In this document: positions 2,022 through 8,675 of the stretch, piece by piece
How positions within the stretch are numbered: the first letter of the stretch is position 1
Layout of the letters: every line of letters starts with the position of its first letter
Origin: Salinispira sp.
Lineage (GTDB): Bacteria; Spirochaetota; Spirochaetia; DSM-27196; Salinispiraceae
NCBI GenBank assembly: GCA_965226555.1
Contig: CBDDDG010000013.1
Span: 1-15,932, forward strand
Length of the DNA stretch: 15,932 nucleotides
Direction: 5' to 3'
Notes under the pieces: model-generated
Told to the model about the DNA's origin: nothing
The model's database searches: none
What the model saw: the letters and a program-made list of their open reading frames with translations, nothing else
Position numbers and translations under genes: made by a program

Positions 2022-2170
2022 GGCATCCCTCTTACCCGCAACACGGGCTTTATGAAAAAGTTTCTCCCATAGTATGCGCACATTGCCGGACATTGTCGAG
2101 TCCGCGCATGGTTGAATTTGCACACACAATCCTGAGTAGTTGACGTATATCTGCATGCGTATTAATATAT

Positions 2171-2194
2171 CAGAACTTCCCCAACAATTTTTTT
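2171..2194. repeat. IS terminal inverted repeat (left in window)
   Basis: CAGAACTTCCCCAACAATTTTTTT is the exact reverse complement of 3773-3796. Preceded by TSD TTAATATAT. Confidence 0.95.
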
Positions 2195-2376
2195 GACGGG
2201 ATTTTGACAGAATAATGGAGGGAGATTTTGCCCTTGAGCAGTGAGTATGTGGCGGGAATACCGGGCGCATAGACCACCCCCGCCGCAGAACCGCCGGTCT
2301 GCGTTGATTGTGTGTTAGTGATATGTAAGAAATCAACTCGGTAGACTGCCCTCGAAAACGACCGATTGTTCACTAC

Positions 2377-3552
2377 TTAGCTCAACACGGACATCCCTCC
2401 TGTGCGAATCTGCCATTTTATTCCCTTCCATATCCACTGCCCTGTTATTTTCCATGTTCGCTTAACAGGAAGCGTTTTTGTTACGACGCTCGCCAGCACA
2501 TGGTTGATACTGGTGAGAAAATTGACCCCCATGGCGATGCAGCTCAACAAACACACAGCGGCGATCTTGTTATGCGTCCGTACTCTCTTGGTGCCGGTAA
2601 GATACGACATGCGCTTAAACTCATCATTCTCTATGCTCCACCGCAGATGCGCAGCTTCCCGCGCAGCAGGCAATGACAGATGTACATCACTCGTAATTAC
2701 CCAGAACGTCTCCTTCCCTTCAGTGACCCGCAGCACCAGCACCGGCACACCATGCCATTCGTCAGGCACTGCCTCAATCTGGTAACTCGTTGATCGTTGA
2801 TAATCATACCCGCTCGCGGTTTGGACTGCATCATCATAGAACCCCAGTTTTTCCATATAGCGGGCTGCGCGATCAAGGAGCAAACGCTCATATTTCCGCG
2901 GAGTTCCATCCCGCTTTACCGAACGAAATTTCACCAGAATATGACGCTTTAATTTCGCGCAGATCAGATGAAGAAAGGGCTCACACAGGTAGAGCCCATC
3001 GAAAGTTAACAATTGCGGCAGGGTATCTCCTTCCCTCAAAAGCATTTCTTCAGACCCGCGCAGTTCGTGCCCTCTGCCCTTTATCGGTCTCACGACCTGC
3101 ACATACGTTCCTGTCTTTGTCGGTCGCGCCAGCACGGTGAACCAGACGCTCCCGAAGACACAGGTGCCATCGACAATACCGATACTCCGATGAACTCCCG
3201 TGTCCAGATAACACGATTCTTCAGCGGTACTCACTGACAACTTCATACTGGTTCCCACCATCGTCGTCACTTCATCCGGTATGATCTGAGGAATCACCCG
3301 TTGTATGGTACTGTCGGAACCGACCATATACCGTTTGCTGCCGAGTAACTTCCGAACATGTTTATTCCGAGCCAGATAATCGAGATCAAACAGACTCTTG
3401 CATGAAAATAATGGCATCGATATAATGAGAGCCATTATTTGTGATAGCTGAACAACCGGTCGTTTCCGAGGGTCGGTTAAATTGGTTGTTTTCAGCATCT
3501 GTCCGAGCCTTTGAATAAAGGTTCGGGCAACACTTTTTTTCTGAGAACACAT
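2377..3552 (-). CDS. DDE transposase (DDE_Tnp_1 / IS4-like)
   Basis: Candidate catalytic motifs GIVDGT, TFDGLY and HLRWSIENDEFK (YREK-like). Lies between the TIRs. Start 3552 chosen for the GGGAGGG RBS at 3556-3562. Confidence 0.9.
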   Translation of the reverse strand: MCSQKKSVARTFIQRLGQMLKTTNLTDPRKRPVVQLSQIMALIISMPLFSCKSLFDLDYLARNKHVRKLLGSKRYMVGSDSTIQRVIPQIIPDEVTTMVGTSMKLSVSTAEESCYLDTGVHRSIGIVDGTCVFGSVWFTVLARPTKTGTYVQVVRPIKGRGHELRGSEEMLLREGDTLPQLLTFDGLYLCEPFLHLICAKLKRHILVKFRSVKRDGTPRKYERLLLDRAARYMEKLGFYDDAVQTASGYDYQRSTSYQIEAVPDEWHGVPVLVLRVTEGKETFWVITSDVHLSLPAAREAAHLRWSIENDEFKRMSYLTGTKRVRTHNKIAAVCLLSCIAMGVNFLTSINHVLASVVTKTLPVKRTWKITGQWIWKGIKWQIRTGGMSVLS

Positions 3553-3572
3553 AGTCCCTCCCATAATTGGGA

Positions 3573-3601
3573 ATTGTACCGCGCATAAGTGGATTTTCGA
3601 A
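3573..3601 (-). promoter_or_regulatory. Putative transposase promoter (pIN)
   Basis: Minus strand TTCGAA-17 bp-TACAAT just upstream of the RBS. Confidence 0.55.
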
Positions 3602-3673
3602 GGGGGGTATGCTCATTTTGCGTGCAAAGAAGACTATGTTCAGGTATAATTTCAGTAAAAGTGAAATTTTTGA

Positions 3674-3702
3674 TTGACACAAAGCTTTTCATTAGGTAAA
3701 AT
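3674..3702 (+). promoter_or_regulatory. Outward-facing sigma70-type promoter inside the IS
   Basis: TTGACA (3674-3679)-17 bp-TAAAAT (3697-3702). A second candidate, GTGCAA-17 bp-TATAAT, lies at 3622-3650. Confidence 0.7.
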
Positions 3703-3772
3703 ACTCAGGAATTCTGTGATGTGTTGATGATTAGTAGATCATGAATGCGTATGAGAGTTCCTGCAATGGTCT

Positions 3773-3796
3773 AAAAAAATTGTTGGGGAAGTTCTG
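3773..3796. repeat. IS terminal inverted repeat (right in window)
   Basis: AAAAAAATTGTTGGGGAAGTTCTG followed by TSD TTAATATAT. Confidence 0.95.
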
Positions 3797-3814
3797 TTAA
3801 TATATGAGAAACTT

Positions 3815-3843
3815 TTGCATTTTGTAAAACTTTGTGATATTAT
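3815..3843 (+). promoter_or_regulatory. Putative native promoter of the lipoprotein gene
   Basis: TTGCAT-17 bp-TATTAT with an extended -10 TG at 3835-3836. Confidence 0.6.
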
Positions 3844-5581: not shown

Positions 5582-5625
5582 TTTCATAGCCCGCAGCGGC
5601 TAATTGAAACGTTGCAATTCAACTC

Positions 5626-5811
5626 AGGCAGGCACGGATTTGCCCCGGACGCATGGGCGAGCAGGAGGCGCAAGCCTCCGACCAGCCCCGTGCCTGCCTT
5701 TTTTCGATAAGACGGCTGGTCGGCGCTCCGCGCTGCTTGCCATGCGTCCGGGCTGATCAAACAGTAATATCCCAAAATAATAAAACTTTTTACAAAGGCC
5801 TCGCGCGGAGC
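5626..5811. other. Highly structured GC-rich intergenic element (candidate ncRNA, attenuator or non-autonomous repeat element)
   Basis: Complementary pairs: 5644-5656/5740-5752 (13 bp), 5665-5669/5674-5678 (GCAA loop), 5678-5687/5714-5723 (10 bp), 5626-5637/5688-5699 (12 bp, running into T6) and 5725-5733/5803-5811 (9 bp). Confidence 0.55.
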
Positions 5812-6251
5812 ATTGTTCCGGGGAGCGTGCGTCAATACACCCTATAATACAGGGCGAATTCAACCATACGCTCACCCCCATTCCTGCCCACTCATCCCTC
5901 CTTCCCCCATTCCCGAAAAAAATTCACACATTTTGCAAAATTCTTTTCAAAAACATAGTCAAGAATGACATTTTACCCGTTATAGATATAGGAGGAATGT
6001 TTATGAAAAAATCATCCCAGAGCAAAGGCCATATCCACGACATAGCCTTCAAGATCGCCTACTACAGAACCCCCCGTATGATTCCCGACCTGCTGCGGTT
6101 GTTCTGTGAGGATACAACTCTTACCAAGCTGGATATGGACAAAATCCGCATTGAAACCCCCAGCTACATTGCAGGAAAAAAGAACCTTCTCTGCGATCTC
6201 GTTGTCAGCGCCCCCTTCCTGTCAGACCCCGACCGGAAGGCCCTGTTCATT

Positions 6252-6380
6252 ACTGAAAATTTTGCGGAGCAAAATTTTCCAATGAGGATTCTCTCATCTA
6301 TACTCTTGATTCTCTCACGGTATAGAAAGTTTTGCCTTGGAAAATTGTGCAAGCACAATTTCCAGTAGCAAAACTTTCGT
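6252..6380. mobile_element. Palindromic insert 1 (129 bp, AC...GT)
   Basis: Hairpin at 6255-6279, 45-bp linker, compound hairpin at 6325-6378. Removal gives ATT|ATT GAA CAT AAA AGC. Confidence 0.8.
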
Positions 6381-6435
6381 ATTGAACATAAAAGCTACCT
6401 GCACAAACACGTTCTCACACAGATTGATGACTATC

Positions 6436-6566
6436 ACAAAGTTTTGCCACAGGCAAAACTTTCTATGAAATAGGAGAATGCTAAGCACAAAGAAAGCATT
6501 CCGAATTTGAAACTTTTGCATTGGAAAATTGTGCAGAGCACAATTTCCAGTAGCAAAAGTTTCTGT
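6436..6566. mobile_element. Palindromic insert 2 (131 bp, AC...GT)
   Basis: AAAGTTTTGCC-ACA-GGCAAAACTTT hairpin, 45-bp linker, compound hairpin at 6509-6563. Removal gives TAT C|AA TAT GCC. Confidence 0.8.
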
Positions 6567-6941
6567 AATATGCCCTCAGAAACAGCAATGTGTACAATGA
6601 AAGGGATGCTATCTATATACTTCTGTTCTACCACGGAAAAAATAAATGGAACCTCCCGCTCACATTTTACAGTTCGCATGGAAATGCTGCTTCCGAATCC
6701 ATGACCGAAGGCACGGTGGATGTCAGGGCGAGAGTATCGTACATTGTGCGCGATCTGAGGCGAATGGACAAAAGGCAGTTGGCATGGCGTTTCGATGGAA
6801 AACGATATACATCAACTTCGTTGTGGTATATAATGCGAGATAATGAAATGAATGTTGAGGGGCTGAAAGAAATTGCGCAGCTCCTGAACGGTCTGTCTTC
6901 ACAAGACTTTACTGATCTGGCAGAGAGTGTGCTGGGCTATA

Positions 6942-7043
6942 ACAAAAGTTTTGCCACAGGCAAAACTTTCTATATCTTGAGAGAATCACGAATAGAGATG
7001 AGAGAATCCAGATTAGAAAATTGTGCGGAGCACAATTTTCGGT
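6942..7043. mobile_element. Palindromic insert 3 (102 bp, AC...GT)
   Basis: Hairpin, 45-bp linker (6971-7015), then GAAAATTGTGC-GGA-GCACAATTTTC. The frame is restored only if one flanking A is also removed (TAT|ATC AAA GAT). Confidence 0.78.
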
Positions 7044-7108
7044 ATCAAAGATCTAGATCCAAAACTGTATGAACAGTTTGAGAAAATTGACAGGGAACTG
7101 TTCCCTAG

Positions 7109-7340
7109 ACAAAGTTTTGCCACAACAAAGTTTTGCCTGAGGCAAAACTTTCTATACCGTGAGAGAATCAAGAGTATAGATGAGAGAATCCTCATTGAAA
7201 AATTGTGCAGAGCACAATTTTTCAGTGGCAAAACTTTCTACAAAATGAGAGAATGCCAAGCGCAACGAGGCATGCCAAATTTGAAACTTTTGCTACTGGA
7301 AATTGTGCTCTGCACAATTTTCCAATGCAAAAGTTTCAGT
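7109..7340. mobile_element. Palindromic insert 4 (232 bp): a 130-bp outer copy with a nested 102-bp copy at 7125-7226
   Basis: The outer copy is homologous to insert 2; the inner copy is homologous to inserts 3 and 1. Removal of the whole gives CCT AG|A GGA GAA AAC AGT ATG. Confidence 0.8.
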
Positions 7341-7353
7341 AGGAGAAAACAGT

Positions 7354-7692
7354 ATGCGGACATATAATATTACCAACGCCTTCGTCAGGGAAGGCATTGC
7401 GAAGGGCCGGATTGAGGGTCTTGAGCAGGGTATCACAAAGGGCCGGGCTGAGGGCATTGAGAAAGGTATTCTGAAAGGACTGCGAACAGGTCGTGAAGAA
7501 GGATTGCAGACAGGTCGTGAAGAAGGACTTCAGAAGGGGCTACAGGCAGGCCGCGCTGAGGGGCATATTGAGGAGCGGAGAAAAAACGCCCGCAGTATGT
7601 TTTTGGAAGGGTTGTCGACCGAGGCTGTTCAGAGAATTACCGGGCTGAGCGATGAGGAAATGCGGACAGTGCGGAACGCGACTACCGGATAA
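7354..7692 (+). CDS. RpnS-like small C-terminal protein from an internal start (putative antitoxin), 112 aa
   Basis: AGGAG at 7341-7345 precedes ATG 7354. EG/KG repeats (ACAGGTCGTGAAGAAGGA at 7486 and 7510) and an ITGLSDEE end. Internal RBS/ATG producing RpnS is established for Rpn genes. Confidence 0.7.
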   Translation: MRTYNITNAFVREGIAKGRIEGLEQGITKGRAEGIEKGILKGLRTGREEGLQTGREEGLQKGLQAGRAEGHIEERRKNARSMFLEGLSTEAVQRITGLSDEEMRTVRNATTG

Positions 7693-7742: not shown

Positions 7743-8675
7743 ATGATTTTCAGACGGCATTATATGACTTCTGTTTTTTTCACATTGATAATTACCCTCA
7801 TCGTTACCATGCTGACGCTCAGCGGATGCCCGGCTCCAGACGTAGATGATCCCGGAAATGGAGGCGGTTCTGGTGATGGGGAACCCGCAAAACTGGAATT
7901 TGCTCCTTCCCGTAACAGCAGTCAGGATTTCAATGTTCTGGATCCCTTGAATGTTTTCCCCCAAGGCATCTGGTCAAACGGGACGATAATGTGGGCGGCA
8001 GATAGTAATAGCCTGAAAATCTATGCCTACAATCTGAGTACCAAATCCCGTATGTCAGGCGAAGACATTCCACGCAATGGCGCTACTCTCGGCTATCCTC
8101 CGGGTTATATCTGGTCAAATGGAACAACGATGTGGGTAACAGAGAGCGTGAATGGTGAGAATGATAACATCAATGCCTACAAGCTGAGTGACGGAACCCG
8201 CGATTCAAGCAAAAATTTCACTACCCTTGGGGAACTCCACATAACTACTTCAGGGATATGGTCGGACGGGGAGACAATGTGGATATTGGAAGGTCACCAG
8301 TCTGCTGCCAATGCCTATGCCTACCATCTGCCTGACGGATCCGATGATGATGGTGCCGCCGATTCCGGAAAAACTATCGACCTGGGCAAGCCGTACACTT
8401 CCAAAGGTATGTGGTCAAATGGAACCACACTGTGGGTACTGCGTGATATTTCTGTTCAGGATCTTGGGTTCCTTGGCAGTCAGCTGAGCGCTTACGACAT
8501 ACATACCAGGTCCTCTGACAATGCAAAAACTGTTTATCCCCGTGTTATCGAAACGGGTTTCGAAAACGCATTTGGTTCAGGTATCTGGTCAGATGGAAGA
8601 ACGATGTGGATAGCAAGTTTTGAGCCGGGGAATCCTAAAATCTATGCCTACACCCTGTTTAAGGAAAGTGAATAA
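7743..8675 (+). CDS. Lipoprotein with five (G/Y)(I/M)WS(D/N)GxxMW-type ...AY repeats, probably a beta-propeller
   Basis: AAGGAG RBS at 7730-7735. Lipobox LSG-C, Gly/Asp/Pro tether, five units of about 50 aa. Confidence 0.8.
   Translation: MIFRRHYMTSVFFTLIITLIVTMLTLSGCPAPDVDDPGNGGGSGDGEPAKLEFAPSRNSSQDFNVLDPLNVFPQGIWSNGTIMWAADSNSLKIYAYNLSTKSRMSGEDIPRNGATLGYPPGYIWSNGTTMWVTESVNGENDNINAYKLSDGTRDSSKNFTTLGELHITTSGIWSDGETMWILEGHQSAANAYAYHLPDGSDDDGAADSGKTIDLGKPYTSKGMWSNGTTLWVLRDISVQDLGFLGSQLSAYDIHTRSSDNAKTVYPRVIETGFENAFGSGIWSDGRTMWIASFEPGNPKIYAYTLFKESE

What the first reader, a model, noticed from the sequence alone, without database searches (positions are those of the whole stretch)
7109..7340. Nested insertion: one element sits exactly in the hairpin loop of another, with no target duplication
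Seen: insert 2 begins ACAAAGTTTTGCCACA-GGCAAAACTTTC. Insert 4 begins with the same 16 bp (7109-7124), then carries a complete AC...GT unit of 102 bp (7125-7226, the same length as insert 3), then resumes GGCAAAACTTTC at 7227. Removing the inner unit leaves a 130-bp homologue of insert 2. This supports the AC...GT ends and TSD-free insertion independently of the reading frame. At smaller scale, an approximately 32-bp hairpin (7295-7326, ACTGG...CCAAT) sits in the loop of another hairpin in inserts 1, 2 and 4. Inference: the family is mobile, can target its own loops, and uses a TSD-free chemistry (HUH/Y1-type or recombinase-like) rather than that of the nearby DDE IS.
Basis: partly seen in the sequence, partly recalled or inferred. 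Interest (0 to 1): 0.8.

Follow-up and report, generated by a model that had tools for sequence, protein, structure and literature searches.

The report
Nested IS5-type minitransposon lacking target duplication
A 102-base hairpin element really sits in the loop of a sister element with no duplicated target, but both belong to a family of about 500 miniature transposons whose other branch makes ordinary 5-base duplications and is likely moved by a resident IS5-type transposase, so the duplication-free branch, which carries 4-5 flanking bases with it, is likely a side route of a known system and not a new enzyme.

Summary
The nesting is real. An allelic contig has the outer element without the inner one, and three other contigs repeat the nested form. 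The inferred chemistry is mostly wrong. The inserts belong to a family of about 500 hairpin elements built of 11-bp arms. The arms match the ends of a resident IS5-family IS (NF033581) that has 5-bp duplications in 7 of 11 copies. No Y1, Y2, IS110, IS630 or serine recombinase was found. The scan found this family before, on other DNA of this genome; one note said 5-bp duplication, another said none. Both hold. One lineage has perfect 5-bp duplications at 25 of 38 sites. The other, which includes every insert in this broken rpn gene, has them at 1 of 26. That second lineage still adds core+5 (or +4) bases, but the bases next to the arms travel with the element (p=0.0008). Loop insertion traces to at least two events, probably spread afterwards by recombination. 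The 32-bp hairpin is likely a deletion remnant, not a free unit. Verdict: a new variant of an IS5-type MITE with one unexplained junction class.

The parts
7109..7340 (+). Insert 4: nested composite, 232 bp added to the rpn gene (outer 130-bp element plus inner 102-bp element)
7110..7120 (+). Outer element, left 11-bp arm (TIR-like) of its first hairpin
7125..7226 (+). Inner element (hairpin, 45-bp spacer 2, hairpin), inserted at CACA|G of the outer 5-nt loop with no duplication
   Evidence: fold z=-10.6
7228..7238 (+). Outer element, right arm of the split hairpin
7284..7338 (+). Double hairpin (arm-arm-loop-arm-arm) holding the 32-mer 7295-7326; likely remnant of an older loop-nested element after internal deletion
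   Evidence: origin inferred
6251..6379 (-). Insert 1 (129 bp added; double hairpin, spacer 2, hairpin), duplication-free lineage
6436..6566 (+). Insert 2 (131 bp added; hairpin, spacer 1, double hairpin), duplication-free lineage
6940..7042 (+). Insert 3 (103 bp added; hairpin, spacer 2, hairpin), duplication-free lineage
6003..7692 (+). Host gene: Rpn/YhgA-family nuclease paralog broken by the four inserts; internal GGAG plus ATG at 7355 resembles an RpnS start
   Evidence: PF04754 E=3.8e-10 for an intact paralog; RpnS reading inferred from PMC10400941 passages
3808..3834 (+). Single 27-bp hairpin copy of the same family
2162..3796 (-). Unrelated DDE IS with its own 9-10-bp duplication; absent from allele C16; not the mobiliser

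Best explanation
The inner and outer elements are members of one miniature-transposon family whose 11-bp arms match the ends of a resident IS5-family insertion sequence that likely moves them, and the nested copy belongs to a branch that landed without a target duplication, likely because it carried 4-5 bases of an earlier flank with it and was likely joined into a break or unstaggered cut, after which recombination likely spread the nested module among repeats. Shown: arm match; 5-bp duplication for the IS and for the A-loop lineage; none for the C-loop/spacer-2 lineage; constant core+5 or core+4 addition; junction bases inherited with the element; insert sites shuffled among rpn paralogs. 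Inferred: that the IS5 transposase (or its ancestor) released the C-lineage copies as a circle or fragment holding one old duplication's worth of bases; that this piece was opened inside that spacer and joined at a break; and that hairpin loops and recombining repeats are favoured landing places.
For: IS5A (C1:59247-60589, NF033581 at 228 bits against cut-off 140) has TIR GAAACCTTTGCA, 10 of 11 bases shared with the arm GAAACTTTTGC. It has at least 7 near-identical full-length ORFs and perfect 5-bp duplications in 7 of 11 paired copies. Perfect 5-bp flanking repeats occur at 57 of 335 isolated sites against 0.9% in permutations; 3-, 4-, 6- and 7-bp repeats number 9, 6, 2 and 0. Filled/empty pairs add core+5 in 47 and core+4 in 13 of 68 flank keys (not independent). 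A-lineage 25 of 38 perfect against C-lineage 1 of 26, p=3e-7. At 14 C-lineage sites with empty alleles, mismatches to the target fall on the two bases next to each arm (35 of 56 cells) and not on the distal two (2 of 56). The three bases after the right arm track the internal haplotype over 15 host sites, p=0.0008. All 10 pairs of rpn insert sites show four gametes in 58 paralogs. A precedent exists for a DDE IS landing without a TSD while copying its old 4-bp flank, into a REP (PMC11708052, sections 8 and 10).
Against: No circle, junction read or intermediate was seen. C-lineage copies are nearly absent from unique DNA (21 of 26 in repeats against 21% background), so there may be no current activity to explain. 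A one-event flap or heteroduplex model would change one junction per daughter, but most sites are changed on both sides. No Ku or SbcD_C match in G000, so no named end-joining or hairpin-cutting enzyme supports break capture. The lineages were defined after seeing the alignment, though on internal sequence only. The 64 flank groups merge or split a few sites.
Confidence: 0.5

Rival explanations
1. Every copy was inserted by IS5A with a normal 4-5-bp duplication. The C-lineage junctions were overwritten later by register-keeping slippage or conversion, for example when a loop-nested composite lost its outer arms and kept the loop-junction bases.
For: It explains the constant core+5/+4 budget directly. 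The carried bases (left AA, GA, AC; right AG, AGT) are those at loop-nested junctions (ATTGA, CACAA, CACAC; AGTA, AGTG). Single paralogs keep a target-like junction at two rpn sites. Two spacer-2 derivatives that end in an IS-like arm have a 5-of-5 or 4-of-5 duplication (C10:427572, C1:68072). Loop inversions show that these palindromes rearrange.
Against: Slippage should cross over inside the 11-bp arms and keep the duplication, yet 0 of 31 hairpin-spacer2-hairpin flank sets are perfect. It needs two trims per site. Right flanks GGT and TGA track haplotypes and were not seen at loop junctions.
Confidence: 0.25
2. A separate duplication-free enzyme (HUH Y1, IS110, IS630-like or a recombinase), now lost or unassembled, moved the C-lineage with true ends A...NGT.
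For: Blunt junctions with element-borne terminal bases; hairpins at both ends; weak target preference (20 of 26 sites in open frames, close to the 82% background, against 13 of 38 for the A-lineage); the genome is 93.5% complete.
Against: No Y1_Tnp, Y2_Tnp, DEDD_Tnp_IS110, Transposase_20, Resolvase, RVT_1, DDE_3, IS630 above cut-off or ISAzo13 match. The tyrosine recombinases are XerC/D-like or short. No long element with such ends was recognised among 19 lone arms (read by eye). The two lineages share arms, spacer 1 and the double hairpin with the IS5-type branch.
Confidence: 0.15
3. The hugely expanded Rpn nucleases cut or nick DNA and drive the duplication-free insertions themselves.
For: 138 PF04754 matches in G000 against 0-4 in 7 family relatives; many C-lineage sites lie in rpn genes.
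Against: Rpn loci show no sharp shared ends or element hairpins at their borders (by eye). PMC10400941 (passages) finds no evidence that Rpn proteins are transposases. Survival in a redundant toxic gene family explains the location.
Confidence: 0.07
4. The nested arrangement is an assembly artefact of palindromic repeats.
For: Repeat-rich MAG with 6.67% contamination and allelic contigs; no record spans the whole locus.
Against: The same nested junctions occur on four contigs with their own substitutions, and separately assembled contigs cross both junctions with 0 differences.
Confidence: 0.02

Closest known systems
IS5-family MITEs with ISPg1/ISNme1(IS1106)-type ends: BrickBuilt and MITEPgRS of Porphyromonas gingivalis, ATR of Neisseria (PMC4596501, passages)
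   Same: Gene-less repeats whose 11-12-bp ends match a resident IS5-family IS (published TIR GAGACCTTTGCA; here GAAACCTTTGCA); short duplications; filled and empty alleles.
   Different: Here each end is itself a full two-arm hairpin, units are 27-127 bp and number about 500, and one lineage has no duplication but carries 4-5 heritable flanking bases.
DDE insertion sequences that land in REP hairpins: IS1397, ISPsy8, ISRm22 (PMC1525189, passages)
   Same: Insertion at or near the axis of a palindrome by a DDE system.
   Different: ISPsy8 and ISRm22 make 3- or 6-bp duplications, and these elements target a foreign repeat. Here the target is the family's own hairpin, no duplication is left, and only two independent loop events can be defended.
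TSD-less IS481 and IS5 insertions proposed to enter existing DNA breaks (PMC11708052: abstract, passages, sections 8 and 10)
   Same: A DDE element lands without a duplication, copies its old flanking bases along, and sits in a palindromic repeat.
   Different: Those were single events tied to about 60-kb rearrangements. Here about 25 sites show it with no loss or gain of target DNA, and the carried bases are inherited.
REP/RAYT and IS200/IS605 (HUH Y1) systems, IS110 (defining features recalled)
   Same: Terminal hairpins; no target duplication in the C-lineage.
   Different: No such enzyme was found; the sister lineage has 5-bp duplications; the arms match a DDE TIR; there is no fixed target tetranucleotide.

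Membership tests
IS5-family MITE (ISPg1/IS1106 type) | No coding capacity, small size, many copies | tested here: met
   27-127-bp units in 512 clusters; no Rfam family at gathering score
IS5-family MITE (ISPg1/IS1106 type) | Terminal inverted repeats matching a resident IS5-family IS | tested here: met
   10 of 11 bases shared with the IS5A TIR; NF033581 above cut-off; the inner element's right arm differs at about 3 positions
IS5-family MITE (ISPg1/IS1106 type) | Target duplication equal to that of the partner IS: family level | tested here: met
   A-lineage 25 of 38 sites perfect 5 bp; IS 7 of 11
IS5-family MITE (ISPg1/IS1106 type) | Target duplication: the nested element and its lineage | tested here: not met
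   0 shared bases at the nested site; C-lineage 1 of 26
IS5-family MITE (ISPg1/IS1106 type) | Mobilisation in trans by the transposase | not testable with these tools
   needs a transposition assay
HUH Y1 system (REP/RAYT, IS200/IS605 PATE) | Y1 transposase gene in the genome | tested here: not met
   PF01797 no match at E<=1; genome 93.5% complete
HUH Y1 system (REP/RAYT, IS200/IS605 PATE) | Fixed tetra- or pentanucleotide 5' of the insertion, no duplication | tested here: not met
   targets vary at 14 sites; the sister lineage duplicates 5 bp
IS110 / serine or tyrosine recombinase element | Enzyme present and conserved core at both junctions | tested here: not met
   PF01548, PF02371, PF00239 no match; 3 PF00589 hits above cut-off, XerC/D-like or short; no constant core
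IS630/Tc1-mariner MITE | TA target duplicated; IS630 transposase present | tested here: not met
   TA...TA at only some sites; PF13358 none, NF033545 none above cut-off

The most novel reading that the evidence does not exclude
One IS5-family transposase system gives two products: ordinary 5-bp-duplicated insertions, and a second route in which a mini-element circle holding one old duplication is opened inside that spacer and inserted bluntly, so that flanking bases become heritable new ends, with a bias for the family's own hairpin loops that builds Russian-doll elements.
Probability: 0.2. Interest if true: 0.7.

Novelty: new variant of a known kind. Interest (0 to 1): 0.42.

Why it matters
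Missing target duplications are usually put down to decay, recombination between copies or adjacent deletion (PMC11708052, abstract). Here about 25 sites lack the duplication in a patterned way: the total added length is unchanged and the junction bases are inherited with the element. They stand beside about 25 perfect sites of the same family and an intact candidate transposase. That gives a cheap, direct test of whether a DDE system can insert without a staggered cut and turn old flanks into new ends. It also warns against reading 'no TSD plus hairpins' as HUH chemistry from one locus. If the junctions prove to be later overwriting, the finding is an ordinary MITE with an unusual repair signature.

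Tried and rejected
Relatives: no match to the nested element in 30 other genomes and no exact hairpin pattern in 98 other genomes of the order. One exact 28-nt pattern match in genome contigs, on a 6-kb contig of an unrelated MAG, was not followed. None in metagenome or viral contigs. Two viral loci hold a 29% relative of IS5A, not examined. No RNA holder was listed, so nothing is claimed on expression. Rfam gave only sub-threshold miRNA-like hairpin hits. A constant 2-bp TA core or duplication fits inserts 1 and 3 but fails at the loop and other sites. Random decay of duplications was rejected (35 of 56 against 2 of 56). Palindrome perfection from the adjacent spacer predicts TA/CAAT flanks, not the observed AA/AG (reasoning). 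Ends of the other resident ISs (a second IS5 group, IS1182, IS481-like, IS982, IS3, IS30, the window IS) fit the arms less well. N-terminal fragments were too short to name most IS families in Pfam. Empty alleles of single-copy A-lineage sites in other strains were not obtained; that duplication rests on flanking repeats and on six in-genome filled/empty comparisons at five sites. Paper searches for nested bacterial MITEs or heritable carried flanks listed no report of this junction class. One search returned only arachnid-mite papers, most subscription journals are outside the library, and no supplements were read.

Full report
Observation. The sequence claims hold to the base. The four inserts break an Rpn/YhgA-family gene (6003-7692). 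An intact paralog scores PF04754 at E=3.8e-10, and aligning 64 paralogs to it gives inserts of 129, 131, 103 and 232 bp in the window. Contig C16 is an allelic copy of the window locus (94% over aligned columns). It carries the 130-bp outer element with the loop intact and lacks the inner 102 bp, with no base shared between the junctions. The nested form recurs on C18 and C2 at the same rpn site and on C17 in a different outer element. Contigs of run X3 cross both junctions with 0 differences (30 letters on the short side; possibly the source sample), and the un-nested joint 7124-7227 is seen in X1 and X3. The region folds at z=-10.6.

The family. An 11-bp arm, [C/G]AAA[G/C/A]TT[T/G]TGC, forms 740 hairpins in 512 clusters; a resampled genome gives 3. 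The units are a 27-bp hairpin, a 54-55-bp double hairpin, and two hairpins joined by one of two 45-bp spacers (97-127 bp). The pattern has 347 exact matches in G000 and none in 98 other genomes of the order. Measured from the arms, filled/empty pairs add 5 bases in 47 and 4 bases in 13 of 68 flank keys; these keys are not independent. Perfect 5-bp flanking repeats occur at 57 of 335 isolated sites against 0.9% in permutations, and other lengths are rare (this set includes mis-delimited ends).

The likely mobiliser. A resident IS (C1:59247-60589) encodes an IS5-family transposase (NF033581, 228 bits, cut-off 140). It has at least 7 near-identical full-length ORFs, the TIR GAAACCTTTGCA, and perfect 5-bp duplications in 7 of 11 paired copies. 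Its targets are T/A-rich like those of the perfect MITE sites. The published ends of ISPg1, ISNme1 and their MITEs are of the same type (PMC4596501, passages). The three tyrosine recombinases above cut-off are XerC/D-like or short. The genome is 93.5% complete, so absence is not proven. The DDE IS in the window has other ends and its own 9-10-bp duplication. I reached the IS5 reading before opening earlier notes. One of them (e1-9564733) says the same; another (e1-3869613) says no duplication.

Two lineages reconcile these notes. 168 long copies fall into 64 flank groups (a few groups merge or split sites). Lineage A (first loop starting with A, spacer 1) has a perfect duplication at 25 of 38 groups, lies in repeats at background rate (6 of 38; background 21%), and avoids open frames (13 of 38). 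Lineage C (loop starting with C and/or spacer 2) includes all five window elements. It has a perfect duplication at 1 of 26 groups, lies in repeats at 21 of 26, and in open frames at 20 of 26. The split was noticed on the alignment and is therefore post hoc, but it uses internal sequence only. At 14 C-lineage sites with empty alleles, the left junction keeps target bases 1-3 and the right keeps 3-5 or 4-5. The two bases next to each arm differ from the target in 35 of 56 cells, against 2 of 56 for the distal two. The replacing bases are stereotyped (left AA/AC/A, right AGT/TGT/GGT/TGA), and the right triplet tracks the internal haplotype across 15 hand-picked independent sites (p=0.0008).

Nesting. 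Thirteen loop-nested copies were found: 6 with ATTGA...AGTA and 7 with CACAA, CGCAA or CTCAA on the left. I can defend two independent loop insertions at the same register. Others share inner haplotypes across different outer elements, which points to module swapping. Insert presence is shuffled among 58 rpn paralogs in all 10 site pairs, which shows recombination or conversion. A rough chance for two loop hits among 26 sites is 1e-4 to 8e-3, depending on how much DNA tolerates insertion (it uses today's copy number), so a loop bias is likely but not proven. Of 329 strand hits of the 32-mer, 10 passed the filter for lying outside a loop or spacer; 9 of these are ends of long elements and 1 is free. 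The double hairpin equals a loop-nested element after deletion between two CATTG repeats (sequence; inference). Because lineage-A elements contain this double hairpin, duplication-free insertion predates their burst (inference).

How it most likely works. Shown: TIR match, two junction classes, constant budget, heritable junction bases, spread by recombination. Inferred (0.5): the IS5 system released C-lineage copies with one old duplication's worth of flank, as a circle or fragment, which was opened in that spacer and joined at a break or unstaggered cut. A precedent is an IS481 copy that entered a REP without a TSD while copying its old 4-bp flank (PMC11708052, sections 8 and 10). Against it: no intermediate was seen, no Ku or SbcD_C match was found, and both junctions are usually changed. 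The rivals are later overwriting of normal duplications (0.25), a lost duplication-free enzyme (0.15), Rpn itself (0.07; PMC10400941 passages argue against) and artefact (0.02).

Comparison and verdict. The family is filed as an IS5-type MITE. The nested element fails the duplication test, so it is a variant and not a plain member. DDE insertion into hairpin axes is known (PMC1525189, passages), and MITEs in general are reviewed in PMC3184786 (passages). My searches listed no report of a MITE lineage with inherited flank bases in place of its duplication; the library lacks most subscription journals and no supplements were read. New variant of a known kind; interest 0.42.

Noticed in passing
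G000 genome-wide; window 6003-7692: 138 Rpn/YhgA (PF04754) matches in a 3-Mb genome against 0-4 in 7 family relatives. Of 58 close paralogs, 29 have an intact frame. Tandem arrays and variable 4-residue C-terminal repeats are seen.
   Followed up: partly
window 7341-7692: Insert 4 ends just upstream of an internal GGAG and ATG (7355), so the long toxic form is broken while a putative RpnS antitoxin frame stays open (inference from PMC10400941).
   Followed up: no
G000 C13 vs C16; also C17/C9, C10/C4, C10/C6, C22/C26: The assembly holds allelic haplotypes of several loci at 91-98% identity, useful as filled/empty pairs.
   Followed up: partly
G000 C1:19548-18296 and about 20 other copies: An IS481-like element with TGGGATAT ends; the copy inspected has about 15-bp flanking direct repeats.
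   Followed up: no
family-wide, e.g. insert 2 vs C1:138170; site-581 loops: Loops and the inner hairpin are found in both orientations at the same site, which indicates inversion or template switching between arms.
   Followed up: no
G000 C10:427566, C22:104378, C10:183312, C14:99812: Elements and several IS types often sit exactly 5 bp from another element's end (10 of 16 head-to-head junctions), probably reusing the old duplication as a target.
   Followed up: partly
window 5600-5760: A second, GC-rich modular repeat flanks many rpn genes in mosaic order.
   Followed up: no
window 8016-8636: A 621-bp block of the repeat lipoprotein gene is missing in allele C16, bounded by a direct repeat.
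   Followed up: no
L016 (genome contigs): One exact hairpin-plus-CTA match on a 6-kb contig of an unrelated sea-cave MAG, possibly misbinned DNA of a relative.
   Followed up: no
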